This document shows, one piece after another, positions 6,813 through 30,543 of a stretch of DNA of 30,834 bases. The translations under genes were made by a program, and so were the position numbers. Origin of the DNA: a virus. Lineage: Duplodnaviria > Caudoviricetes. The notes beneath the pieces were generated by a model that made no database searches, was not told where the DNA came from, and saw nothing but the letters and a program-made list of their open reading frames with translations. The stretch spans positions 1-30,834 of IMG/VR virus record IMGVR_UViG_3300022178_005310; one strand, written 5' to 3'. Within the stretch, counting starts at the first letter, position 1, and every line of letters starts with the position of its first letter.

Positions 6813-7073
6813 TTAGGTTAATTTTCTTTTTGATTTTTTATCATGTTCTAATGGACTAAGTCTCCAAATAGATTTTCTTCCTATGCAAACTGAATAATTT
6901 TTTCCATTTCTTATTTGAGGATCTCGGTGCTTTTGAGCTTCACTGCATCCAAGAGTATTGTTTTTGAATACGCAGCCAGTGCAAAGCATTCTTCCTTCGG
7001 AATCTAGGGTTACATCTCCTTCTTTGTTGATTACATACTCACCATCTATAAACCTTATTATATCATCATTCAT
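6813..7073 (-). CDS. Small Cys-containing hypothetical protein
   Basis: CTGCVF...C...C; start moved to ATG 7073. Confidence 0.6.
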   Translation of the reverse strand: MNDDIIRFIDGEYVINKEGDVTLDSEGRMLCTGCVFKNNTLGCSEAQKHRDPQIRNGKNYSVCIGRKSIWRLSPLEHDKKSKRKLT

Positions 7074-10737: not shown

Positions 10738-10806
10738 CCTCATTGACAAACCACCTATAATACACTGACAAATCAAATAATCACACAATGTCTTTATTGA
10801 ACAAAT

Positions 10807-10877
10807 GCATATTCATTAGTGTTGCCTACTGGTTAGTGTATATTCGTTAGTGTTGTGATGTATATTTGTTAGTGTTG
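10807..10877. repeat. Three 18-nt direct repeats GYATATTYRTTAGTGTTG
   Basis: Copies at 10807, 10838, 10860; partial GTTAGTGT at 10832. Confidence 0.7.
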
Positions 10878-11020
10878 TATTGGGTTTCAATGGGCATGAG
10901 TGACCCGTATTGAAGTGTTATTTAACTATTTGACCGATAGGGAAAATTAATTAAAACCAAGGCATTAGCCTTGACAATAGGAGCTTGAGTAATAAGACGA
11001 GCCATAGGCGAGCAAATGGG

Positions 11021-12378: not shown

Positions 12379-12550
12379 AAGGATAGGTTTAGAAAGTTAA
12401 TTATAATAATCACCAATTGCAAGGCTCTTAGTTAGGCTACTCCTAACGTACATGAGCACCTTGCAATTTTGTTTACGTTGTTTTGTAAACTGGTGGCATA
12501 ACATCCTGCTAACGCTCCGGCATGATATGACTGAGATTCTTACATCCCAA

Positions 12551-12590: not shown

Positions 12591-13322
12591 GTAGACAACA
12601 GCGAGTGTAATTGATAATGAGTAGCTTAGTTGCTACTTACTTCAATTAAGACTGGCTGTTGTTTGAATGATAACTACAGTGTGCTAGCCATAAGCGCTAG
12701 CTAGGTTCAAGCATTAAATAATTTAGACAATGTTGGTTCTGAAGCAAGGGTAGCAAGGTTCTAATCCTTGAGTAACTTCAGTTACATTACAGCGTCAACT
12801 CTGTAAGCCCTAAGCATTCTAGTCTGATAGTTGCATTCAATCAACGGCGCTGATAAATTACTGCATACATCTCATCCTCCAATTGGACATCCTTCCTGAT
12901 AAATAACCATTTGCATTGTCTATAGTTAAGGGATACACCCACTCATTGTAATTGGGCTTTCACTCCCAACTCATTCTCTTTGCACAGCCTCTGACCGGTC
13001 GATAATGTATAAGCTGTAGAGGCTTATACTGCATGAGAATCTTCACAGCTAATGCCATGATGATACAATGAGTGATGGATAGCACAAAAGTGCCACCCTA
13101 TCTCCCAAAATTTAAAAAGGGTAGGGGATGAAGTTGTATTTATCCCACGCACGACTATATGTTCTCAAAAAAAAAAAAAAAAAAAATAAAAATATTTTCC
13201 ACAGCAATAGTTAGATAATATTTTCATCTTTCTACCCCGTTCATGTTTACTGAACATAGAGATTGACTGAAAATATCTCAATTCGCGATATGCAATATAA
13301 CTCATTCATTATATACCTCTAC

Positions 13323-14385: not shown

Positions 14386-14417
14386 TTTGGAAAATCACCC
14401 AGGTATGTATATCTTTG
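14386..14417 (+). promoter_or_regulatory. Bacteroidota sigma-A consensus promoter
   Basis: TTTG(14386)-N20-TATCTTTG(14410-14417); ATG at 14421. Confidence 0.7.
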
Positions 14418-14420
14418 GGT

Positions 14421-14795
14421 ATGAGTGATAAATATTTTGAACAAATGGATTTAGATGAAGAACAGAAGAGTATTTTTAAAAATGTACATCATCACACTGG
14501 AGTAGATGTAAGGTTGCATTATTTTGATCAAAACAGTATTAAGCCTTGGAACTCGAGTAATGACAATACAGTCCTTGCGAATGAAATACAGAATCTTAGA
14601 ATGCAGAATGAATTACAAAAGCAGAAGATAGAGCTTCTTAGATCTGAAGTGACAATGATGAAAGAAAGACTTGATAATTATTTGAAATATGAAAGAAGAA
14701 GGATGGGGACAACCGAAGTTGGGGATAGGAATAATACAGCAGATGGAGCAGAGCAAACAGACACCCTGCAGCACATTAGACATAAATGCGTTTGA
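14421..14795 (+). CDS. Small coiled-coil protein with KYERRRM tag
   Basis: Start moved to 14421 (MSDKYF) just after the promoter. Confidence 0.7.
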   Translation: MSDKYFEQMDLDEEQKSIFKNVHHHTGVDVRLHYFDQNSIKPWNSSNDNTVLANEIQNLRMQNELQKQKIELLRSEVTMMKERLDNYLKYERRRMGTTEVGDRNNTADGAEQTDTLQHIRHKCV

Positions 14796-14892
14796 TAGTG
14801 TCCTTAGACAGTTATCAGTTTTGAAGACAAAATTAAAAAATGTAATAGAAGAAGAAGATGTCAGAAAATATCCAAGACGAAGGCTTTCTTAG
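14689..14892 (+). CDS. Small protein, MCP-like fragment + KYPRRRL tag
   Basis: 67 aa; GIGIIQQMEQS...LRQLS segment; tag at C-terminus. Confidence 0.65.
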   Translation: MKEEGWGQPKLGIGIIQQMEQSKQTPCSTLDINAFDSVLRQLSVLKTKLKNVIEEEDVRKYPRRRLS

Positions 14893-15040
14893 ACGCAAGT
14901 CTCAGACAACTGAATCAGCAATTGAAAGCAGTTTTGGCGCTCCTAGAACTTATCATACATTCTTTGAGAATGATGTGGACCACAAGCGAAAAGCTAAACA
15001 ACTTAGAGATGAAAGAAAGAAAAAAAGGAGTAGCAACTAA
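14858..15040 (+). CDS. Small basic protein, possible portal-like fragment
   Basis: 60 aa; fills the operon between tagged ORFs. Confidence 0.55.
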   Translation: MSENIQDEGFLRRKSQTTESAIESSFGAPRTYHTFFENDVDHKRKAKQLRDERKKKRSSN

Positions 15041-15242
15041 TCATATATTTGAAGAAGCAGGAATATCCCTGGAGATTCAAAAGCATTTCAATTTGATAAA
15101 GCCACAGATTGATATATTGTACGGAACTGATCAAAACTTTATCTTGGGAGTTGATCCTTACTTTACAACAACACAAGAAAAGAAATATGAACGACGCAAG
15201 CTTAGCAGCATACATGGCAATGGTAGCAAAAGCCAAAACTGA
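15009..15242 (+). CDS. Small protein, terminase-nuclease-like motif + KYERRKL tag
   Basis: Start moved to ATG 15009 (MKERKK); QNFILGVDPY. Confidence 0.6.
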   Translation: MKERKKGVATNHIFEEAGISLEIQKHFNLIKPQIDILYGTDQNFILGVDPYFTTTQEKKYERRKLSSIHGNGSKSQN

Positions 15243-15396
15243 AGGCAAAGAATTGATAATAACAAAAAGTAGAAGAGCTGGATCAACAATGGGCATGAAT
15301 CAAATGAAAAAGCTATGGCTTCAAGAGCAAGAGGAAGAATACAATAAGACTCTTGAGCAAGAGAAGCATCCACGAAGAAAACTTAAGACATCATAA
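15187..15396 (+). CDS. Small protein, terminase Walker-A-like segment + KHPRRKL tag
   Basis: Start moved to ATG 15187 (MNDASL); AKTEGKELIITKSRRAGST. Confidence 0.7.
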   Translation: MNDASLAAYMAMVAKAKTEGKELIITKSRRAGSTMGMNQMKKLWLQEQEEEYNKTLEQEKHPRRKLKTS

Positions 15397-15469
15397 CTTG
15401 ATGACATCACTATTAGACATTCACTTTCCAATTTCGTATCTTACCAATTAATCGTTTAAAAAAAATATC

Positions 15470-15682
15470 ATGGCAAAACTAAAGAAGTATCTAACTACTG
15501 TTTTAGAGTTCACTACTGGTCTAGACTTTTATGGTTTAGGCTTACTTGCATCCGGAGTTGCAGTGTGGGCATTATTCGGATGGTCCCTTATAGGGTCAGG
15601 ACTTATTGGAGCCTTTGTCTTCAAGAATTTCAAAGCCATAGTTGATCATGTTAAAACGTTAATAAAAAGAAAGGAGGTGTAA
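15470..15682 (+). CDS. Small membrane protein (2 TM)
   Basis: 70 aa hydrophobic hairpin, basic tail. Confidence 0.7.
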   Translation: MAKLKKYLTTVLEFTTGLDFYGLGLLASGVAVWALFGWSLIGSGLIGAFVFKNFKAIVDHVKTLIKRKEV

Positions 15683-15708
15683 ATATCTAATAGTCAGAAG
15701 ACTATATA

Positions 15709-15738
15709 AGTCCTGTACTCTAGTGCAGGATTTTTTTT
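15709..15738 (+). terminator. Intrinsic terminator
   Basis: TCCTGTAC-TCTA-GTGCAGGA followed by T8. Confidence 0.8.
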
Positions 15739-15767
15739 GCTTACATCAATTTTAATTAGTAAATTAG
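15736..15767 (+). promoter_or_regulatory. Bacteroidota sigma-A-like promoter
   Basis: TTTG-N20-TAAATTAG. Confidence 0.55.
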
Positions 15768-15787
15768 ACTTTAAATAAACGCAGATT

Positions 15788-16039
15788 ATGATAGTTTTTA
15801 TACAAATAACGCTAGTACTGTTCCTGATAGCATTCCCATTACTTCACAACGTAGCAAAAGCAAGAATAGATTTCTCATTAGGAATATCATTTATGTTTGG
15901 GGTATCTTACGAGAGAAGTGACCTTTTGGTAGATGGAATTCTTTTTGAGAGGCATCATGTACTTTTTGCTTTTGGACCAATATATGTTGACAGTACATGG
16001 TTAAACAAAATAGGACCCTATGTTGAAAAGGAAGAGTAA
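15788..16039 (+). CDS. Membrane-anchored or secreted small protein
   Basis: 83 aa, N-terminal hydrophobic helix. Confidence 0.65.
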   Translation: MIVFIQITLVLFLIAFPLLHNVAKARIDFSLGISFMFGVSYERSDLLVDGILFERHHVLFAFGPIYVDSTWLNKIGPYVEKEE

Positions 16040-16271
16040 AAAAGAAAACTCAAGTAAATATGAGCTGCTAACTGAAGAACAATTAATAAAGCTATTATCT
16101 ACTTCAGGAGTTCATATAAAAGATCCTTCAAGACAAGTAACTATTTTGACTGGTACTACAGGCGCAAATTATTTTAATAAAGCTATGACAGAAATGTTGA
16201 AAGCAGAAACTGAATTATTAAGAGCTGAGATTGAAGATACGCCTAAGCACGAAAGAAGAAAGTTAGATTAA
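16020..16271 (+). CDS. Small protein, MCP-like fragment + KHERRKL tag
   Basis: 83 aa; RQVTILTGTTGANYFNKAM. Confidence 0.7.
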   Translation: MLKRKSKKENSSKYELLTEEQLIKLLSTSGVHIKDPSRQVTILTGTTGANYFNKAMTEMLKAETELLRAEIEDTPKHERRKLD

Positions 16272-16504
16272 TGGAAATAAAAATAGTTATTGTCAGATCA
16301 TTTGATCCAGAAGAAATGAAGAATGAATTGCATAAAGAAGTTCCATTACTTGCAAGGAGTAAAAAAAGCTTCAAGATAGATGCTGCTATGTCTCAGCGTG
16401 TAACATTTAAGTCAAAGTACGGGCAAAGCCTCCAGGGTTATCTTATAGAGATCTTGAAACCACAAAAACCAATACACCAAAGAAGAAGGCTACCTAATCA
16501 GTAG
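16271..16504 (+). CDS. Small protein, possible MCP-like fragment + IHQRRRL tag
   Basis: 77 aa; TAATG-coupled; IKIVIVRSFDPEEMKNELH. Confidence 0.7.
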   Translation: MEIKIVIVRSFDPEEMKNELHKEVPLLARSKKSFKIDAAMSQRVTFKSKYGQSLQGYLIEILKPQKPIHQRRRLPNQ

Positions 16505-16512
16505 CCTTTTTT
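16486..16512 (+). terminator. Intrinsic terminator at convergent junction
   Basis: AAGGCTAC-CTAATCA-GTAGCCTT followed by TTTT. Confidence 0.7.
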
Positions 16513-16610
16513 ATGAATTTAACTTTTGGTTCGTCATATAATGGATCTCGCTCAATAATTATTGTCACTCCATTTTTAGTTTGGATTCTACTCCAACTCT
16601 TGTGCTCCAT
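16494..16610 (-). CDS. 38-aa protein absent from the ORF track (MEHKSWSRIQTKNGVTIIIERDPLYDEPKVKFIKKATD), MCP-like fragment
   Basis: Manual translation; overlaps end of 16588-16797. Confidence 0.6.
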   Translation of the reverse strand: MEHKSWSRIQTKNGVTIIIERDPLYDEPKVKFIKKATD

Positions 16611-16797
16611 TCCCGGATGCACTTTTTTTCTTTTCAGGTCCATCTCCTATATTAGTTATTTCCACTCTGTAGCTCTCTGTTGGTATCTTTGGGTATTGAG
16701 CATTCTTTTTCCACTGAGCTATCTTTCTAGCCATCATTGGCCATGTGTACTCCCCTTCAGGCTTGTAATTGGGATCAGGCTTTTTTCTTCGGAGCAT
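16588..16797 (-). CDS. Small protein with MCP-like fragments
   Basis: 69 aa; EYTWPMM and PTESYRVEITNIG. Confidence 0.65.
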   Translation of the reverse strand: MLRRKKPDPNYKPEGEYTWPMMARKIAQWKKNAQYPKIPTESYRVEITNIGDGPEKKKSASGNGAQELE

Positions 16798-17017
16798 GAC
16801 AGCAAAGCTTTATGGATTCCATTTTAAAATCATTAATATCTTTATTTGTCACCGGTAAAGTAAACTTATGTACTACTAAAGCTTCATCACTATTATCTTC
16901 TAACTTAAATGTTACTGAGTTCTCAGCTTTATTGTATTGATAACCAGCAACATAGCCACACGGGTAACTACCTAGTCCATAATTAAGTTTTTTGAATTCT
17001 TTTTCTAAATCATCCAT
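16775..17017 (-). CDS. Small protein with possible MCP C-terminal-like fragment
   Basis: 80 aa; GYVAG...SDEALVVHKF. Confidence 0.65.
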   Translation of the reverse strand: MDDLEKEFKKLNYGLGSYPCGYVAGYQYNKAENSVTFKLEDNSDEALVVHKFTLPVTNKDINDFKMESIKLCCHAPKKKA

Positions 17018-17104
17018 AGTTTCTATGTAAATTGTTCGTTGAACAATTTACAACAAAAAAATTGGAATTCCTAGAAACTATCACATTATTTTGATACATG
17101 ATTT

Positions 17105-18436: not shown

Positions 18437-18578
18437 AGAAGTCTTCAAAGCTAGAAGAAAAATTTGTAATGTGTGCCCATCACGGGACACATTATTGGAT
18501 AGGTGCAGATTATGCGGATGTCCGTTAGCTGCAAAAACAAGATCATTAACAACAGAATGTCCAGATAAGTTATGGTAA
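18357..18578 (+). CDS. Small Cys-rich Zn-finger protein
   Basis: RRKICNVCP...CRLCGCPLAAKTRS...CP..W. Confidence 0.75.
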   Translation: MSKAREISNGYKNLLLSKLGLSSTKDEEVFKARRKICNVCPSRDTLLDRCRLCGCPLAAKTRSLTTECPDKLW

Positions 18579-18856
18579 AAAAGATAAAGTTTAAAAAAAT
18601 TAAATTACTTAGTATCGTTCCTATTGCTAAAAATAAGATTAAAATGGAGTTTAGTGAGCCCTGGTTCTTTAAAGGAGAATTAATTTTTGGAACAAAAGAA
18701 GGCACTTGTCTCAAGATAGTAGAATCTGTAAATGAAAAAGGATCTTACGTGTGTTCACTTATATCATTAGGAGATAATATAAATGTTGGGGATGAGTTTT
18801 ACTCACAAGTAGTATCAGTAGAAGATTTTAATGAATTATTTAAAGATTTTATATAA
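18572..18856 (+). CDS. Small beta-rich protein, possible MCP insertion-domain-like fragment
   Basis: 94 aa abutting groEL; FSEPWFFKGELIFG. Confidence 0.7.
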   Translation: MVKKIKFKKIKLLSIVPIAKNKIKMEFSEPWFFKGELIFGTKEGTCLKIVESVNEKGSYVCSLISLGDNINVGDEFYSQVVSVEDFNELFKDFI

Positions 18857-20434
18857 ATGGTAGAAAGCAAATATAGTGATGAAGTAAGAGATGGTTTAAT
18901 GGCTGGAGTAGATAAACTCGCCAATGCCGTAAAAGTAACGCTAGGTCCAAAAGGACGTAATGTTATTATAGAGCAACAGTATCCATTGGATCCTAAAGTC
19001 ACAAAAGATGGCGTGACAGTTGCAAAAGAGTTTGAGCTTTCAGATCCTATTCAGAACATGGGTGCTACCCTGGTCAAAAGGATAGCAGAAGCTTCAAATA
19101 CATTAGCCGGTGATGGAACTACAACAGCAACTGTGCTGGCCCAAGCCATATTACGCGAAGGCATTAAGTTGGTAAAGGCAGGTTATAACCCACTAGACAT
19201 TAAGAATGGAATAGATAAAGCTACTGAGGCAATAGTTGCTAAGCTTGACAAGATGAAGATTGAGATACAGACTGGATCCGTGGCTATAAAGAATGTGGCT
19301 AGCATTTCTGCAAACAATGACTGGGAGCTTGGTGAGATAATTGCCAAAGCCTTTAACAGTGTGGGAGCAGATGGAGCCGTATCTGTAGAGGAGGGTAGAG
19401 GATTTACTACTACTGTAGATTTAGTTGATGGATTACAGTTTGATCGTGGTCTGCTATCAACTTTTTTCTCTACTAACCCGGAGAAAGTTGAGATGAATAT
19501 GCGTGATCCATACATACTAATTGTGGATGGAAAAATTACTACAGCAGAAGAAGTCATGCATTGGTTAGAGCCAGTTGCAAAGTCTGGACGACCACTATTA
19601 GTAATTGCAGAAGATGTGACAGGACAGGCGCTCTCAACGCTTGTAATGAATAAGACTCGTGGTGGATTATCACTGGCAGCAGTAAAAGCCCCTGGTTTTG
19701 GAAAGTATAGAAAAGAAGTTCTTCATGACATAGCGGCTATAGTCGGGGCAGAAGTAGTAAAGGTTGAGGATCTACTAACGGATGAAGGATATAAGTTAGG
19801 AACAGCCGAACTAGTAAGTTCCACACATCTCACTACAATTATTATGGGTGGAAACAAAAATGAAGAGGAGGCAGTGTTAAGGAAAAGCCAAATTGATCAG
19901 AAAATAAAATCCGAAAAGCTTACTCAGTACGAGATAGACAAACTTGAGGAAAGGAAAGCAAAACTATCCGGAGGAGTGGCAGTAATAAACGTAGGCGCGA
20001 AGAGTGAAGTTGACATGAAGGAAAAAAAAGACAGAGTTGACGACGCCAAGGAAGCTGTGATATCAGCACTTGAGGAAGGAATAGTTCCTGGAGGAGGCAT
20101 AGCCTTATTGATGTGTAGAGATCTTAAGATTAAAGTGAATCCTAATAGCCACGAAGGACTAGGTGTTTCTTTAATGATGCAAGCAATACAATCTCCTTTC
20201 AGAACAATATGTGAAAATGCAGGAGTTTCAGCAGATGTAAAGATGGCTGAGATAAGAAAGATGGACCCAGGCTATGGATACGATGCAAAAAATGATCAAT
20301 TCGTAAAAATGATAGAGGCAGGAATAATGGATCCCAAAAAAGTTACAAGGGTTGCATTAGAGAGTGCTGCATCAGTAATTGGTACAATATTAACAACTGA
20401 ATGCGCTCTTATAAGAGATAGGGAAGCAAATTAA
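18857..20434 (+). CDS. groEL: Phage-encoded chaperonin GroEL
   Basis: AVKVTLGPKGRNV, VTKDGVTVAK, AGDGTTTATVLA, FDRG, AVKAPGFG, EEGIVPGGG, DPKKVTRVALE; no GGM tail. Confidence 0.97.
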   Translation: MVESKYSDEVRDGLMAGVDKLANAVKVTLGPKGRNVIIEQQYPLDPKVTKDGVTVAKEFELSDPIQNMGATLVKRIAEASNTLAGDGTTTATVLAQAILREGIKLVKAGYNPLDIKNGIDKATEAIVAKLDKMKIEIQTGSVAIKNVASISANNDWELGEIIAKAFNSVGADGAVSVEEGRGFTTTVDLVDGLQFDRGLLSTFFSTNPEKVEMNMRDPYILIVDGKITTAEEVMHWLEPVAKSGRPLLVIAEDVTGQALSTLVMNKTRGGLSLAAVKAPGFGKYRKEVLHDIAAIVGAEVVKVEDLLTDEGYKLGTAELVSSTHLTTIIMGGNKNEEEAVLRKSQIDQKIKSEKLTQYEIDKLEERKAKLSGGVAVINVGAKSEVDMKEKKDRVDDAKEAVISALEEGIVPGGGIALLMCRDLKIKVNPNSHEGLGVSLMMQAIQSPFRTICENAGVSADVKMAEIRKMDPGYGYDAKNDQFVKMIEAGIMDPKKVTRVALESAASVIGTILTTECALIRDREAN

Positions 20435-21757: not shown

Positions 21758-21955
21758 ATGCAAGCAATTATTAATGCAATCAACAAAGCTACAAAAGCTG
21801 GAGTTTATAATCTTAATGAAGTGCTAAATATAGCAAAACAGTTAGAACAACTAGGGGAAATAGTTCAGCAGCATCAATCTCAGCAAGAAGCTGTAAAGAG
21901 TATGAATAAAAATGCAGTTATGGCTGCAGATCTTGAATCAAAATCTAATAAGTAA
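21758..21955 (+). CDS. Hypothetical helical protein
   Basis: 65 aa, TAATG-coupled to next gene. Confidence 0.65.
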   Translation: MQAIINAINKATKAGVYNLNEVLNIAKQLEQLGEIVQQHQSQQEAVKSMNKNAVMAADLESKSNK

Positions 21956-22536
21956 TGAAAGAGGGAGCTATAACTAAACAGGTTAAAGCTTTGGAAGAAT
22001 CTCAGGCTAAGGAAGAAGGTATTAAAAACTTCTTTCAGGTCCGTGACAAAAGAAAGCGCAAGACTGGAGGACTCGTAAACGATGTTTCTGAAACCCTTGG
22101 CAATGAAGCTAAAGAAAAGGAAAGATTGTATAAAAAATCTTTAAAAGAAAAGATTCTACCGGATCATATAATACCAATGTTTAATACATTGTTTTTAACG
22201 GCCAGAAGAAATAAAGTGAAAACTGATAGTGGGCTTTATTTGCCTACAGCATCTTTTGGTGGTGAAGGAGCCACTGATTTAGAACTAGATTTCTCTGATA
22301 CACAGAAGGTTCTTGCGGTTGGGCCGCAGGTTCAACAGGCAATGCCTGGAATGGAAGTTAAACTTAACATGGAAAACTTTAAAAGGAAACTAGAAAGTAC
22401 AGTTGCTCAAAAAGTGAATAAAGAATTTGAATTCTTTTTACCATTAGAAGTCATTAACGGAATAGAATATATTAGAATAACAGAAAGAGATATCTCGTAC
22501 ATTTCAAATAGTATGGGCGTAAAAAAAGAAGAATAA
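21955..22536 (+). CDS. GroES-like co-chaperonin with N-terminal extension
   Basis: IIPMFNTLFL...KTDSGLYLP...KVLAVGPQV...PGMEVKL...EYIRITERDI follow GroES motif order. Confidence 0.75.
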   Translation: MKEGAITKQVKALEESQAKEEGIKNFFQVRDKRKRKTGGLVNDVSETLGNEAKEKERLYKKSLKEKILPDHIIPMFNTLFLTARRNKVKTDSGLYLPTASFGGEGATDLELDFSDTQKVLAVGPQVQQAMPGMEVKLNMENFKRKLESTVAQKVNKEFEFFLPLEVINGIEYIRITERDISYISNSMGVKKEE

Positions 22537-25951: not shown

Positions 25952-28363
25952 ATGTCAATAAGCACAACTGGATCTAAAAAGACTTTTCCTAAGCAAAAGA
26001 AGTCGTTCAAAGCTAAAGGAAAACAATGGAGGCAAGATCATTTAGATTGGGCTGACCAGAATAGCTACCTAAATAACGGTATAATAAGAAGGAAGCTTAA
26101 GAATAGAAGGATCAACTTAAATCTATATAACGGTAAGGCAGACATCAACGATATGAAGTTGATCCTGAATCCTGGCGGTATGGAGCAGTTTTATGTTCCT
26201 GACAATATTCAACACTATCCAATAATTACTCCAAGAGTCAACGTTCTAGTTGGTGAGGAAAAGAGAAGGAAATTTGACTGGACTGTCAAAATCAGTAATC
26301 CGGATACAATTTCGCAGATTAAGAAAGACAAGAAAGCCCTAGTTGATGCAAAACTACAGGAGTTCTTGAGCTCTACTCTTTCTGATGAAGAACTTGAAAA
26401 AGAAATACAAGCATACGGTGACTACATAAATTTTGATTACCAAGATATGCGAGAGAAGAGAGCTAATCTCTTAATGCGTCACTACATCCAGAAACTTGAA
26501 ATGAAAGTTCTTTTTCAGCAAGGATTCAAAGATGCACTTATCATGGGTGAAGAGATTTACATTTTTGATATTGTAAATAGTGAAGTTACTTTTGAAAAAT
26601 TAAACCCTCTTAATGTGCACACGCTGCGCGGAGGATACACAAATAAAATTGAGGATTCTGATGTTATCGTAATTGATGAGTATTGGAGTCCAGGTAGAAT
26701 ACAGGATCATTTCTACAACGACTTGAAAGAAGCAGATGTAGTAAAGCTGGACAGTGGAGTATTTAAAGGAAGCACAACTGACCTTGACGGTGAGAATGTA
26801 GCTATTGATGACGCCGGTGGATTAGAGATGCTGAATAGAGAAAGCATCAACGCATTCATTGATTCAACAGGGCTTTATGATTCTGCACATGCTGCAGGAA
26901 GAAATCATTATACTGACGTTAATGGAAATATTCGTGTATTGAGAATGTTCTGGAAATCCATGAAGTGTGTTTACAAAGTGACATACTTCGATGAACTTGG
27001 CAAACAGCAAGTAAAATTCAGATCAGAAGATTACGTACTTGATAAAGCTAAAGGAGAAACTGGCACTAAGCATTGGGTTAGTCAGTGGTGGAAAGGCGCT
27101 AAAATTGGCCAAGACATTTATCTTCAGATAAAACCAAGAGAAATACAATATAACAAAATTAATCAACCATCTTTCAATTCTTGTGGGGTTGTTGGTCAAA
27201 TATATAATACCACAGAACAGGAAGCTGTATCTATGGTAGATAGATCTAAACCATTCCAGTATCTATATGACATATCCTGGTACAGGGTCAACGAGGCTTT
27301 GTCTAAATACCTTGGTTCTATAGTTGAACTTGATTTAGCGAAAGTTCCTACTGGATGGTCCATAACTAAATGGTTATACTTTGCGCGTAAATCTGGAATA
27401 TCCGTAGTGGATAGTTTTAAAGAGGGTCAAAAAGGTATGGCTAAAGGTAAATTAGCTGGAGCAGTGGGCAATACTACTGGTAGAGTGTTAGAGCAAAGAG
27501 TTGGAGATTTCATTCAGGTCCACATAGATATGATGGAATTTGCAAAAGCTCAAATGGATGAGATAACTGGCGTATCAAGACAAAGATTAGGGCAAGTTGA
27601 GAATAGGGAAACTGTCGGAGGTGTCGAACGCGCTGTATCACAATCCAACCACATCACTGAAGAATTGTTTACTCTTCATGATTATTGCAAGAAAAGATGT
27701 TTCCAGATACTTTTGGAAACTGCTAAGATTGCGTTGAAAGGAAATGAAGTTAAGTTTTCTTACATAGATGATGATATGACTCGTCAGATTATGGAGATTA
27801 ATGGAGATGAGTTTGCTGAAGAAGAGTACGGATTAGAAATAAGCAATGATGATGCAATCAATGAGATGCAACAAAAACTTGACGGTATGGTTCAAATGGG
27901 TCTTCAGAATCAAATGTTGTCATTCTCTACAGCTATGAAAATTTATAATTCTCCATCTTTACGAGAAGTTCAAAGACTTATTGAAAAAGACGAACAGAGA
28001 ATGAGAGAATCTCAAGCTAAATCTTCTGAAGATGAAATGAAACAACGTCAAGCTGAAGCTCAAAGACTTGCTGAAAAAGAGCAGTTAGAGCAAAATATTG
28101 ATATTGAAAAATTCAATAAAGAAGACGAGACTAAAAGATACATTGCTGAGCTTAAGGCTGAGACTGAAAGAATTAATAAGGAAATGAATGAAAGTGCTGA
28201 ATACTCAAATGTTGATGATAAAGACTTTGAAAAGTTTAAGGCAGAACTTGGTATAAAAGAAAAAGGATTATCTCAAGACATGAAAAAACATAATGATATC
28301 ATGTTAAGAAAAGACAAAGAAATTGCTATAAAAAATAAAACGGCTTTAAAGCCTCAACCATAA
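25952..28363 (+). CDS. Portal protein (crAss-like)
   Basis: 803 aa directly after TerL; IQHYPIITPRVNVLVGEE, SKPFQYLYD, ITGVSRQRLGQ, long C-terminal coiled coil. Confidence 0.9.
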   Translation: MSISTTGSKKTFPKQKKSFKAKGKQWRQDHLDWADQNSYLNNGIIRRKLKNRRINLNLYNGKADINDMKLILNPGGMEQFYVPDNIQHYPIITPRVNVLVGEEKRRKFDWTVKISNPDTISQIKKDKKALVDAKLQEFLSSTLSDEELEKEIQAYGDYINFDYQDMREKRANLLMRHYIQKLEMKVLFQQGFKDALIMGEEIYIFDIVNSEVTFEKLNPLNVHTLRGGYTNKIEDSDVIVIDEYWSPGRIQDHFYNDLKEADVVKLDSGVFKGSTTDLDGENVAIDDAGGLEMLNRESINAFIDSTGLYDSAHAAGRNHYTDVNGNIRVLRMFWKSMKCVYKVTYFDELGKQQVKFRSEDYVLDKAKGETGTKHWVSQWWKGAKIGQDIYLQIKPREIQYNKINQPSFNSCGVVGQIYNTTEQEAVSMVDRSKPFQYLYDISWYRVNEALSKYLGSIVELDLAKVPTGWSITKWLYFARKSGISVVDSFKEGQKGMAKGKLAGAVGNTTGRVLEQRVGDFIQVHIDMMEFAKAQMDEITGVSRQRLGQVENRETVGGVERAVSQSNHITEELFTLHDYCKKRCFQILLETAKIALKGNEVKFSYIDDDMTRQIMEINGDEFAEEEYGLEISNDDAINEMQQKLDGMVQMGLQNQMLSFSTAMKIYNSPSLREVQRLIEKDEQRMRESQAKSSEDEMKQRQAEAQRLAEKEQLEQNIDIEKFNKEDETKRYIAELKAETERINKEMNESAEYSNVDDKDFEKFKAELGIKEKGLSQDMKKHNDIMLRKDKEIAIKNKTALKPQP

Positions 28364-28375
28364 AAAAAATAAATA

Positions 28376-28765
28376 ATGGGATTAAATCAAAATCAAAAAT
28401 CTGGACAATTAAAAGACATGCCGCATACACAGCCTTCCGGCACTGTATTTTTTGATGTAGAAAATCAAGACATCTACATATACAACATGGCTAATATTCC
28501 AGTAAAAGTTGGAGCAGTAATTATTGAAAACGTTGTTTTATCTGTTGATGATTGGACTTTAGTTGGTGATTTCTATGAATACGACTATGAAAACTTATTG
28601 ATACGAGAAACAAGCTTATTAAAAGTAATACCTTACAAAGAAACAATGGATGTAGTAAAGTCTTCTGACATTATGCCTATGGTGGTTTCTGCTGAAGGAA
28701 CTGTAAAAATTTACGCAGCTAATCAACCTTTATCTGATATTAACGTAGCAATAGAAATAGTATGA
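28376..28765 (+). CDS. Hypothetical beta-rich (likely virion) protein
   Basis: 129 aa after portal. Confidence 0.7.
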   Translation: MGLNQNQKSGQLKDMPHTQPSGTVFFDVENQDIYIYNMANIPVKVGAVIIENVVLSVDDWTLVGDFYEYDYENLLIRETSLLKVIPYKETMDVVKSSDIMPMVVSAEGTVKIYAANQPLSDINVAIEIV

Positions 28766-30543
28766 TAGGAAGATTCAATATTGGGTGGGGTTATTTTACT
28801 GAATTAATAGGTTTAGACGAACGTTTTATCTTTACGGTCAAAACAGACAATGCAGGAACTTCTTTAGATACACAGTTTACTATTCCGACAAGTACTACAG
28901 GAATAACAGAGCCTTTTTTATACGATATTGAGACAAGTGACGGTCAGACAATAACAGGGGTTACGGGAAACCATACTATAACATTTCCCACAGCGGGAAC
29001 TTATGACGTAAAGATAAGCGGTTCATTTCCTTATATTCGTTTTAATAATGAAGGGGATAATTTAAAACTTTTAGATATAAAGAATTTTGGCATTTATGCT
29101 TTAGGCAGTAAAAGTCAAGATAGGGCTTTTAATGGTTGTTCTAATTTGGTTATAAATGCAACTGATATAGGACATTTTGAGAATGTTACTAATTTTTATG
29201 TAGCATGGGAAGGTTGCACATCACTAACCACATTCCCATTAATAGACACAAGTAGCGGTAATAATTTTGGTTTTGCTTGGCAAGGTTGCACATCACTAAC
29301 CACATTCCCATTACTAGATACAAGTAGTGTAGGGAATTTTGTTTTTACTTGGTTCAATTGCACATCACTAACCACATTTCCATTACTAGATACAAGTAGT
29401 TGTACTAATTTTGGTCATACTTGGAGGAATTGCACATCTCTTACATCATTTCCCGCTAATGCATTTGATACTAACATAGCATCAAATTATACAAGTGCTT
29501 TTAATTCAACAAACTTAACTACTCAATCAATAGACGATATATTAGTTAGCCTAGATACAAGCGGAGTTTTAAACGGTACATTTACACAAAGCGGAGGGGA
29601 AGGTCCTAGTTATATCGGTTCAATAGCAATAAATAATTTAACGGCTAAAGGTTGGACAATAACAACAACAACACCTGTCACTTCGGAGGAATTTGTATTT
29701 ACCGTCAAAACAGATAACGCAGGAACTTCTGGTACTAATCAATTTACTATTCCAACAAATACGACAGGAATAACAGAACCTTTTTTATACGATATTGAGA
29801 CAAGTGATGGTCAGACAATAACAGGAGTTACAGGTGATACTACTATAACATTTCCCACAGCGGGAACTTATGACGTAAAGATTAGCGGTTCATTTCCTTA
29901 TATATATTTTAATAATGCAGGGGATAAATTAAAACTTTTAGAAATAAAGAATTTTGGAATTTATGCTTTAGATAGTACAAGTCAGCTTAGTGCCTTTTGG
30001 GGATGTTCTAATTTAATTATAAGTGCAACGGATATAGGGCATTTTGAAAATGTTACTGATTTTCAATCTGCTTGGAACAGATGCTCAAGTCTAACATCAT
30101 TTCCATTAATAGATACAAGTAGTGGATTGGTTTTTACTCAAACTTGGCAAAGTTGCACAAACCTAATCTCATTACCTTTAATTGACACAAGTAATGGATT
30201 GTTTTTTTCTTATACTTGGCGTGCTTGCTCAAGCCTAACCACATTCCCATTACTAGATACAAGTAACGGTACTAATTTTTTTAAAGCTTGGGAATTTTGC
30301 TCAAGCCTAACATCATTTCCATCTAATGCATTCGATATAAATATAGCTAGTAATTATATAGATGCTTTTTTATCAACAAACCTAACCACGCAATCAATAG
30401 ACGATATACTTGTTAGCCTAGACACAAGCGGAGTGCTTAACGGAACATTTGCACAAAGCGGAGGGCAGGCACCATCAGCAACAGGACAAACAGCAATCAC
30501 TAACCTAGTCGGAAAAGGCTGGACAATAACAACAACAACTTAA
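28762..30543 (+). CDS. BspA/DUF285-like repeat surface protein, two tandem 283-aa units
   Basis: Ig/PKD-like HTITFPTAGTYDVKISG module then 22-aa repeats (W..CTSLTTFPLLDTSS..NF). Confidence 0.8.
   Translation: MIGRFNIGWGYFTELIGLDERFIFTVKTDNAGTSLDTQFTIPTSTTGITEPFLYDIETSDGQTITGVTGNHTITFPTAGTYDVKISGSFPYIRFNNEGDNLKLLDIKNFGIYALGSKSQDRAFNGCSNLVINATDIGHFENVTNFYVAWEGCTSLTTFPLIDTSSGNNFGFAWQGCTSLTTFPLLDTSSVGNFVFTWFNCTSLTTFPLLDTSSCTNFGHTWRNCTSLTSFPANAFDTNIASNYTSAFNSTNLTTQSIDDILVSLDTSGVLNGTFTQSGGEGPSYIGSIAINNLTAKGWTITTTTPVTSEEFVFTVKTDNAGTSGTNQFTIPTNTTGITEPFLYDIETSDGQTITGVTGDTTITFPTAGTYDVKISGSFPYIYFNNAGDKLKLLEIKNFGIYALDSTSQLSAFWGCSNLIISATDIGHFENVTDFQSAWNRCSSLTSFPLIDTSSGLVFTQTWQSCTNLISLPLIDTSNGLFFSYTWRACSSLTTFPLLDTSNGTNFFKAWEFCSSLTSFPSNAFDINIASNYIDAFLSTNLTTQSIDDILVSLDTSGVLNGTFAQSGGQAPSATGQTAITNLVGKGWTITTTT
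28825..30540 (+). repeat. Intragenic tandem duplication, 2 x 849 nt
   Basis: 28825-29673 and 29692-30540, equal length and colinear. Confidence 0.9.

What the first reader, a model, noticed from the sequence alone, without database searches (positions are those of the whole stretch)
14421..17017. Candidate new system: array of mini-genes built from fragments of terminase, capsid and possibly portal, many fused to a common tag
About ten 38-124 aa ORFs, with their own promoters and terminators, each seem to carry a different 10-45 aa piece of a core morphogenesis protein. These are the TerL Walker A region (15187), the TerL nuclease motif (15009), possibly portal (14858), and several MCP segments (14421, 14689, 16020, 16271, 16494, 16588, 16775). 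Six carry the same peptide tag. TerL and portal matches are visible against genes in this window; MCP matches rest on my recollection of the crAss-like MCP consensus. The pieces are out of order, on both strands, partly redundant and in intact coupled ORFs, which argues against one decayed gene. Established: terminase, portal and MCP are triggers of bacterial pattern-recognition defences (Avs/AVAST STAND NTPases sense terminase and portal; CapRel-SJ46 senses MCP). Inference: a modular bait-plus-tag library that titrates or destroys host sensors, or dominant-negative peptides that poison assembly of competing crAss-like phages. I know of no description of such an array.
Basis: partly seen in the sequence, partly recalled or inferred. 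Interest (0 to 1): 0.92.

Follow-up and report, generated by a model that had tools for sequence, protein, structure and literature searches.

The report
Tagged capsid-piece mini-genes in crassvirus
An aquatic crAss-like phage and many of its relatives keep clusters of tiny genes carrying short, diverged copies of the most conserved pieces of the capsid and portal proteins (and probably the DNA-packaging enzyme), many with a shared basic peptide tag, and these likely act as decoys against the bacterial immune sensors that detect such proteins, though no function has been tested.

Summary
Mostly real. The window is a fragment of an aquatic Steigviridae-like crassvirus, probably infecting Flavobacteriaceae. 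15009 is mainly a portal piece, not a terminase nuclease piece. 15187 resembles the TerL Walker A region (weakly). 14421, 14858, 16271 and 16775 show no fragment. The six-gene tag K-[YHI]-x-R-R-K-L is real, behaves as a protein-level motif and is enriched (38/193 versus 6/324 ORFs); a mirror N-terminal motif also occurs. Relatives hold variable arrays of the same design. Of 29 conserved phage proteins only MCP and portal are copied above background. The pieces keep deeply conserved residues beyond a neutral-decay null (odds ratio 4.1 versus 1.3). Against a fixed system: fast change, two broken copies in close strains, arrays absent in some relatives, and tags on non-fragment genes. Best reading: decoys against host pattern-recognition sensors, with a basic handle (0.45), untested. 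Ten literature searches found no description. This scan has noted the same design on other DNA (huge phages with other tags; marine crAss-like phages).

The parts
14410..14417 (+). Bacteroidota-type -7 promoter box (TAnnTTTG consensus, recalled), 3 nt before the 14421 start; likely promoter of unit 1
   Evidence: the same box lies directly before the 14689 ortholog in L161
14421..14795 (+). 124-aa tagged mini-protein (helical-looking segment, tag at 14685-14705); no structural-protein fragment shown
   Evidence: pN/pS 0.44 before the tag and a stop in the tail after it in run X8
14689..14892 (+). 67-aa mini-protein: MCP 281-320 piece (14716-14835) plus tag (14866-14886)
   Evidence: family hhalign P=95.9%; syntenic ortholog in L161, dN/dS 0.19; premature TAG at codon 41 in run X8
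14858..15040 (+). 60-aa ORF ending in a degenerate basic tail; likely coding, portal resemblance not supported
   Evidence: 6 synonymous versus 3 non-synonymous listed changes, pN/pS 0.13; no hit
15009..15242 (+). 77-aa mini-protein: Walker-B-like stretch (15042-15062, weak), portal ~77-110 piece (15063-15158), tag (15183-15203)
   Evidence: orthologs P0005 and L161; dN/dS 0.32 versus L161, pN/pS 1.7 versus X8
15187..15396 (+). 69-aa mini-protein: TerL Walker A-region-like piece (15211-15288) plus tag (15364-15384)
   Evidence: PHROG 6681 E=0.0016; orthologs P0002-P0004 keep the motif and tag with linker insertions; dN/dS 0.30 versus L161
15470..15682 (+). 70-aa hydrophobic ORF with homologs in relatives, followed by a terminator at 15708-15740; no fragment, no tag
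15788..16039 (+). 83-aa hydrophobic ORF heading unit 2; no fragment, no tag
16020..16271 (+). 83-aa chimeric mini-protein: N-terminal basic motif, MCP C-terminal strand piece (~465-494, weak), MCP 321-344 piece (16125-16196), tag (16245-16265)
   Evidence: Pfam Crass_capsid and PHROG 11589 top hits; dN/dS 0.40 versus L137 and 0.50 versus L161
16271..16504 (+). 77-aa tagged mini-protein (tag 16472-16492); MCP resemblance not supported
   Evidence: orthologs in L137 and L005; dN/dS 1.96 versus L137 on 9 changes
16482..16512 (.). Bidirectional terminator-like hairpin between the convergent units; its 5' arm overlaps the 16271 tag codons
   Evidence: z=-5.5 (+) and -3.9 (-)
16494..16643 (-). 49-aa mini-protein: N-terminal basic motif plus MCP 384-405 piece (16518-16583)
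   Evidence: Pfam Crass_capsid top hit; family of 6, hhalign P=82%; dN/dS 0.14 versus L137
16588..16797 (-). 69-aa mini-protein: N-terminal basic motif plus MCP 414-431 piece (16633-16686, weak)
   Evidence: p=0.018; 0/200; in L137 a 66-nt deletion and an in-frame TAG break it (deletion also in X8)
16775..17017 (-). 80-aa conserved folded protein (helix, three strands, helix) heading unit 3; not an MCP piece, no tag
   Evidence: 10-member family; model pLDDT 85.8; best viral fold match a 79-aa Stenotrophomonas phage IME15 protein, TM 0.70
18572..18856 (+).
   Evidence: 19.1-19.3 bits, 0/200 shuffles; family hhalign P=90%

Best explanation
The region is a strain-variable array of small genes that carry diverged excerpts of the capsid and portal (and probably terminase) proteins together with a shared basic handle, and these likely act as decoys that would occupy or divert host sensors of those proteins. 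Shown: the excerpts, their restriction to MCP and portal among 29 proteins, preferential retention of family-wide conserved residues, the handle, and long-term purifying selection with rapid turnover. Inferred: early expression from host-type promoters; binding to sensors without activating them; the handle as a protease or docking signal that would remove the decoy (and any bound sensor) or clear it before the phage's own assembly.
For: Specificity: among 194 array ORFs, profiles of 29 conserved phage proteins gave MCP 13 hits, portal 7, four others 1 each, 23 none; controls 3 hits in all. Enrichment over shuffles in 1312 ORFs: MCP 21 versus 0/3/0 (reversed 0), portal 9 versus 1/0/1 (reversed 0). 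The pieces are 24-47% identical to own-clade MCP and about as close to other Steigviridae; they match 137/263 deeply conserved versus 43/186 clade-only columns; seven representatives give odds ratio 4.1 against a neutral-decay-plus-detection null of 1.29 (0 of 2000 draws reach it). Most MCP pieces fall at 281-345 and 377-447, which I infer to be the A-domain (and HK97 topology); Avs7, 8 and 10 all bind the A-domain (PMC13581612, passages). dN/dS 0.19-0.50 over dS above 1.1 with frames and gene order intact. A terminase sensor (Avs3a, E=5.5e-231) is present in 1 of 5 Flavobacteriaceae genomes checked. Precedent for a trigger mimic that blocks a sensor: DSAD1 (PMC10973363, abstract).
Against: Avs sensors bury large folded surfaces and are described as recognising core folds (PMC13581612, PMC13601566, passages); 15-45-residue pieces may neither fold nor bind, and a mimic could trigger defence, as T4 vs.8 does with Avs2. 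Two pieces are broken in close strains (14689 in X8, 16588 in L137) and short-range ratios are near 2 for 14689, 15009 and 16271 on few changes, not separable from neutrality. 12 of 34 loci with enough flank show neither fragment nor tag. The tag also sits on non-fragment genes. The null assumes a present-day own-clade donor; an old or foreign donor would raise the odds ratio without selection. TerL pieces did not exceed controls in the bulk scans.
Confidence: 0.45

Rival explanations
1. The pieces would act as dominant-negative peptides that enter and poison capsid or portal assembly of co-infecting crassviruses, and the handle would route poisoned intermediates to a protease or membrane.
For: The pieces are from oligomer-forming proteins and are no closer to own-clade MCP than to other Steigviridae. 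Interference with structural assembly is a known strategy (Tai, PMC11364771, abstract; PLE inhibitor of packaging, PMC11417361, search listing only).
Against: The retained residues are those shared with the phage's own MCP, so self-poisoning is expected; no immunity partner was identified. No tail, scaffold or auxiliary capsid protein is copied above background.
Confidence: 0.2
2. The array is a nursery of recombination debris: pieces of highly expressed late genes are copied behind a promoter, pick up the tag by overlap with A-rich start regions, and decay.
For: Broken copies in close strains; short-range pN/pS of about 2 for three genes; 14421 and 14858 are absent from L161; 6 of 61 tags hide the next gene's start codon.
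Against: Only MCP and portal are copied; dN/dS 0.19-0.50 at long range and 0.03 for a portal mini in L149/L193; conserved-residue bias beyond the null; tag codons follow background usage, 32 of 35 motif occurrences lie in an ORF frame, and 27 of 61 tags have no nearby downstream start.
Confidence: 0.12
3. The minis would modulate the phage's own assembly or shield nascent MCP and portal from host proteases and chaperones, as substrate decoys working with the adjacent phage GroEL.
For: 18572 lies directly before groEL in the conserved block; the basic-then-hydrophobic terminal motif resembles a ClpX C-terminal degron class typified by MuA (recalled, not tested).
Against: Relatives with the same core (G001, TerL 78% identical to G002) lack the tags and show no fragment; the set of pieces differs strain by strain, which fits an arms race better than a housekeeping role.
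Confidence: 0.13

Closest known systems
DSAD1 of SPbeta-like phages (anti-DSR2; PMC10973363, abstract read)
   Same: Small phage accessory protein that mimics a structural trigger (tail tube protein) and occupies the sensor without activating it.
   Different: One protein against one sensor, mimic by structure; here an array of sequence excerpts from several triggers with a shared terminal handle, and no sensor binding shown.
T4 vs.8, Ksap1, Ksap2 (non-terminase Avs2 ligands; PMC13601566, passages read)
   Same: Stand-alone phage genes resembling part of TerL, restricted to some lineages; vs.8 keeps Walker A and B.
   Different: Folded ATPase-like domains that activate Avs2; here 15-45-residue excerpts, mostly of MCP and portal, in tagged arrays.
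Crassvirus major capsid protein gp32 and portal gp20 (Pfam PF23898; PHROG 11589, 6547; PDB 7QOF; PMC10172136, passages read)
   Same: Source families of the excerpts.
   Different: The minis cover at most about a tenth of the protein, at 25-45% identity, far below the Pfam cut-off, and cannot form a shell.
Assembly-interference proteins of satellites and prophages (Tai, PMC11364771, abstract read; PLE packaging inhibitor, PMC11417361, listing only)
   Same: Small accessory proteins aimed at virion morphogenesis.
   Different: Encoded by satellites or prophages against other phages; no homology to the minis was shown, and no inhibition was tested here.

Membership tests
Crassvirus MCP / portal / TerL (full structural genes) | Full-length HK97, portal or ATPase-nuclease protein above the family cut-off | tested here: not met
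   Pfam Crass_capsid 10.8-13.2 bits against cut-off 27; ORFs are 49-124 aa
Crassvirus MCP / portal / TerL (full structural genes) | Local homology to the family | tested here: met
   MCP for 5 ORFs, portal for 15009; TerL for 15187 only weakly
Decayed pseudogene of a structural gene | Collinear pieces, frame breaks, neutral evolution | tested here: not met
   Pieces out of order on both strands in open, coupled frames; dN/dS 0.19-0.50 versus L161; conserved-residue bias. Two single copies are broken in close strains
DSAD1-type sensor decoys | Mimics a phage protein that triggers a defence sensor | tested here: met
   MCP, portal and terminase are Avs and CapRel triggers; excerpts shown
DSAD1-type sensor decoys | Binds the sensor and blocks activation | not testable with these tools
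   Host and sensor unknown; needs co-expression or pull-down
DSAD1-type sensor decoys | Homology to a described anti-defence protein | tested here: not met
   No named anti-defence family in PHROGs or Pfam; 0 of 11 minis hit PADLOC
vs.8/Ksap-like Avs2 ligands | One chain with a terminase-like ATPase fold (Walker A and B) | tested here: not met
   Walker A-like and Walker B-like stretches are in separate 69- and 77-aa ORFs
Tai / satellite assembly inhibitors | Blocks assembly of another phage | not testable with these tools
   Needs infection assays
Clp/Lon terminal degrons | Short terminal motif shared by unrelated proteins, selected at protein level | tested here: met
   28 of 68 tags start 5-7 residues from the end; codon use equals background
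Clp/Lon terminal degrons | Confers protease-dependent turnover | not testable with these tools
   Needs reporter fusions in protease mutants

The most novel reading that the evidence does not exclude
Crassviruses maintain an evolving library of 'epitope plus handle' mini-proteins: each copies a conserved patch of an immune-trigger protein, catches the matching host sensor and delivers it, through the basic terminal motif, to a protease or sink, a natural phage counterpart of targeted degraders. The window's four non-I-domain MCP pieces are nearly non-overlapping (281-320, 321-344, 384-405, 414-431) and might co-assemble into a split A-domain decoy. The copied patches would map what Bacteroidota immune systems recognise.
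Probability: 0.2. Interest if true: 0.95.

Novelty: categorically new. Interest (0 to 1): 0.8.

Why it matters
Bacterial sensors target capsid, portal and terminase because phages cannot easily change them; how phages evade such sensors is largely open. A gene class that excerpts exactly those proteins and adds a common handle gives a short, cheap-to-synthesise test set for that question and predicts which patches host sensors bind. The same design with unrelated tags in huge phages (earlier scan notes, unchecked) would make it a convergent strategy. Even if the decoy reading fails, a handle on about a tenth of a phage's small proteins needs a reader that is not yet known.

Tried and rejected
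Pairwise alignment of 20 ORFs to the window's TerL and portal: none at p<0.01. MCP origin of 14421, 16271, 16775 and portal origin of 14858: no support; 16775 is a separately folded family. TerL nuclease motif in 15009: not kept in orthologs. DNA repeats as the basis of the tag or of module shuffling: no convincing family. Tag as a by-product of A-rich start regions: rejected as the main cause. Tag as a portal excerpt: the portal motif near residue 100 is a top long-protein match (10.4 bits) in 3 genomes, but other long proteins score alike and the profile match is p=0.47; left as a lead. TAG recoding: 3 of 25 window genes end in TAG, so table 11 was kept. L209 match to 15187: lies in a protein that reads as a peptidoglycan peptidase, found by an exact 8-residue seed; treated as chance, though it shows the N-terminal helix match is not unique to TerL. 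P0006-P0008: repeat artefacts. Homolog search for 14689 found no candidate. Atlas searches of 16775 and 14858: no usable hit. No RNA holder listed. Sigma-70 promoter scan uninformative (29 versus 19 +/- 4). Complex prediction for co-assembly of four pieces was not available. The wide PDB fold search for 16775 did not finish. The MCP model is low confidence (pLDDT 55), used only for element order. No universal phage-encoded partner for the tag stood out.
Full report
Context. The 30,834-nt window is the whole held record. It encodes TerL (23548), portal (25952) and GroEL (18857). TerL is 41-44% identical to Steigviridae such as crAss001 and IAS and 74-89% identical to many uncultured aquatic phages. 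The RNR small subunit is 83-89% identical to the best 80 bacterial matches, nearly all labelled Flavobacteriaceae or Bacteroidota (7 of 64 parts scanned), so the host is probably Flavobacteriaceae (inference). Holders are freshwater and seawater DNA runs. MCP is not in the window; I took it from relatives.

Observation. All ORFs are present. None of 20 ORFs matches the window's own TerL or portal pairwise, so profiles were needed. Against 200 shuffles each, 5 of 13 ORFs tested match MCP (14689, 16020, 16494, 16588, 18572; all 0/200, 16588 at only 2.2 bits), 15009 matches portal (1/200) and 15187 matches TerL (2/200). With 39 tests the last two are modest on their own. 15009 gains support from two orthologs (profile P=78% to portal 77-125), and 15187 from PHROG 6681 being top hit for it and four orthologs, though profile-profile scores stay low. 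Pfam Crass_capsid is the top hit for 16020, 16494 and 18572. 14421, 14858, 16271 and 16775 show no fragment. 16020 appears chimeric, with two MCP pieces.

Organisation. Unit 1 (14421-15396) has five ORFs overlapping by 32-107 nt behind one Bacteroidota-type box at 14410; unit 2 (15788-16504) and unit 3 (17017-16494, minus strand) converge on a bidirectional hairpin. The promoter consensus is recalled. In L161 the same box sits directly before the 14689 ortholog, and 14421 and 14858 are missing, so whole modules come and go.

Relatives. I analysed the window and 47 loci chosen from about 150 fetched, leaving out most duplicates and short contigs; some remaining loci are close kin, so counts are not independent. 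In 1312 unique short ORFs, hits of 5 bits or more were MCP 21 (three shuffles 0, 3, 0; reversed 0), portal 9 (1, 0, 1; 0), TerL 0 (1, 0, 1; 0) and GroEL 5, the four listed being contig-end truncations. Arrays occupy the same position but differ in content. Of 34 loci with at least 2 kb of flank, 11 have fragment and tag, 3 fragment only, 8 tag only, 12 neither. Of 29 conserved-protein profiles run on 194 array ORFs, MCP gave 13 hits, portal 7, four others one each and 23 none, TerL included; controls gave 3 hits in all. Walker B-like and nuclease-like motifs recur by eye in relatives but were not significant (p=0.019 at best).

The handle. K-[YHI]-x-R-R-K-L lies in the last 30 residues of 38 of 193 array ORFs against 6 of 324 others; shuffles give at most 6. 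Positions not used for selection are also conserved (K in 42 of 68; H, Y or I in 48 of 68). Codon use equals background, 32 of 35 occurrences are in an ORF frame, and 27 of 61 have no downstream start nearby, though 6 hide the next start codon. A mirror N-terminal motif (Leu then three mostly basic residues) marks 24 of 193 array ORFs against 2 of 189, including 16020, 16494 and 16588. In complete genome G002, 10 of 92 small genes end in the tag, 6 outside the array; G001, G006 and G008 have 1 of 55, 0 of 62 and 0 of 61. The handle is therefore a wider, lineage-patchy feature, not exclusive to fragments.

Selection. Against L161 (dS 1.1-2.8) five orthologs give dN/dS 0.19-0.50 with frames and order kept; ten other relative pairs give 0.03-0.45; TerL and GroEL give 0.03 and 0.09 (high dS values are imprecise). 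At short range the picture is mixed: 0.14-0.40 for 16494, 16775 and 16020, but about 2 for 16271, 14689 and 15009 on 9-19 changes. The X8 figures use only the differences the tool listed. 14689 has a premature stop in X8, and 16588 is broken in L137. Nineteen pieces are 24-47% identical to own-clade MCP, 24-43% to other Steigviridae-level MCPs and 16-41% to distant families, and match 137 of 263 deeply conserved against 43 of 186 clade-only columns. Simulated neutral decay with the same detection filter gives odds ratio 1.29 (99th percentile 2.4) against 4.1 observed for seven representatives. An older or foreign donor would inflate this, so it supports but does not prove selection for mimicry.

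Structure. The I-domain is residues 79-180 in crAss001 (PMC10172136, passages); 18572 copies part of it. The other pieces lie after the long helix at 236-259 in a low-confidence model that matches 7QOF; by HK97 topology (my knowledge) they are A-domain. Simulated detectability was 0.16-0.35 along the whole MCP, yet the 19 segments cover only 97-149, 281-345 and 377-447, apart from two stray columns; only about five independent families stand behind this.

Mechanism. Established: Avs families sense MCP, portal and terminase; Avs7, 8 and 10 bind the MCP A-domain and appear to target monomers (PMC13581612, passages); CapRel binds the P- and A-domains (PMC9712102, passages); Upx is predicted to bind unfolded terminase strands (PMC13601566, passages), which makes short baits more plausible for some sensors; DSAD1 inhibits by mimicking a trigger (PMC10973363, abstract). 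An Avs3a was found in 1 of 5 Flavobacteriaceae genomes. Inferred: early minis pre-occupy such sensors, and the basic handle engages a protease or docking partner. Against: fold-based recognition, risk of triggering, broken copies, non-fragment tagged genes, and no expression or binding data. I put decoy at 0.45, anti-competitor poison at 0.2, self-assembly or protease shielding at 0.13, debris at 0.12.

Novelty. Ten full-text searches (two of them were for background papers) found no description of tagged structural-fragment arrays. Passages of a November 2026 review of phage countermeasures (PMC13728456; 12 of 42 places) and of a preprint on accessory genes (10.1101/2023.04.06.535777) showed none either. 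The library lacks most subscription papers, and no supplements were read. Earlier scan notes report the same design in huge phages with other tags and single fragment genes in marine crAss-like phages; none matched this DNA or this tag by name. They are unchecked leads. I class the design as categorically new relative to the literature I could search, with function untested; interest 0.8.

Noticed in passing
window 17026-17052 (upstream of 16775, minus strand); L161 7423-7478; L005 2011-2066: Perfect 12-bp inverted repeat with a 3-nt loop, with paired arm changes in two relatives (z -3.5 to -4.5); likely an operator or RNA hairpin between divergent units.
   Followed up: partly
window 18572-18856: Strongest MCP fragment gene (I-domain piece) lies outside the finding, directly before groEL; similar genes in L144, L173, L187.
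   Followed up: yes
L005 2543-2785, L032 143-388, L149 7784-7990, L160 180-428, L190, L193, L196: Well-conserved family of portal 453-490 piece plus tag (hhalign P=97.8%; dN/dS 0.03-0.23), absent from the window; best candidate for a first experiment.
   Followed up: partly
G002 61944, 62436, 58759, 91134, 91457, 91780; window 6813-7073: Small non-fragment genes on the other genome arm also end in the tag, and many begin with the N-terminal basic motif.
   Followed up: partly
window 16775-17017: Conserved 80-aa helix-three strands-helix protein resembling small phage proteins in BFVD (TM 0.70); found in one subgroup of arrays; possible partner.
   Followed up: partly
window 14685-14705 and 15183-15203: The tag's Tyr-Glu codons contain the start codon of the next gene in another frame, so the tag doubles as a coupling junction; a possible route for module chaining.
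   Followed up: partly
window 25952-28363, near residue 100: The portal's own basic-aromatic motif scores 10.4 bits on the tag profile in three genomes; within the chance range.
   Followed up: partly
window 12595-12662 and 12415-12468; 10806-10878: Long imperfect inverted repeats and three 20-nt direct repeats in the ORF-poor stretch where GC skew flips; possible origin or regulatory region.
   Followed up: no
window 18857-20434 and 21955-22536: Phage-encoded GroEL, and a downstream gene that reads as GroES-like, in the conserved block before TerL.
   Followed up: no
window 28762-30543: 593-aa protein after the portal built from two large repeats with internal short repeats; differs among relatives.
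   Followed up: no
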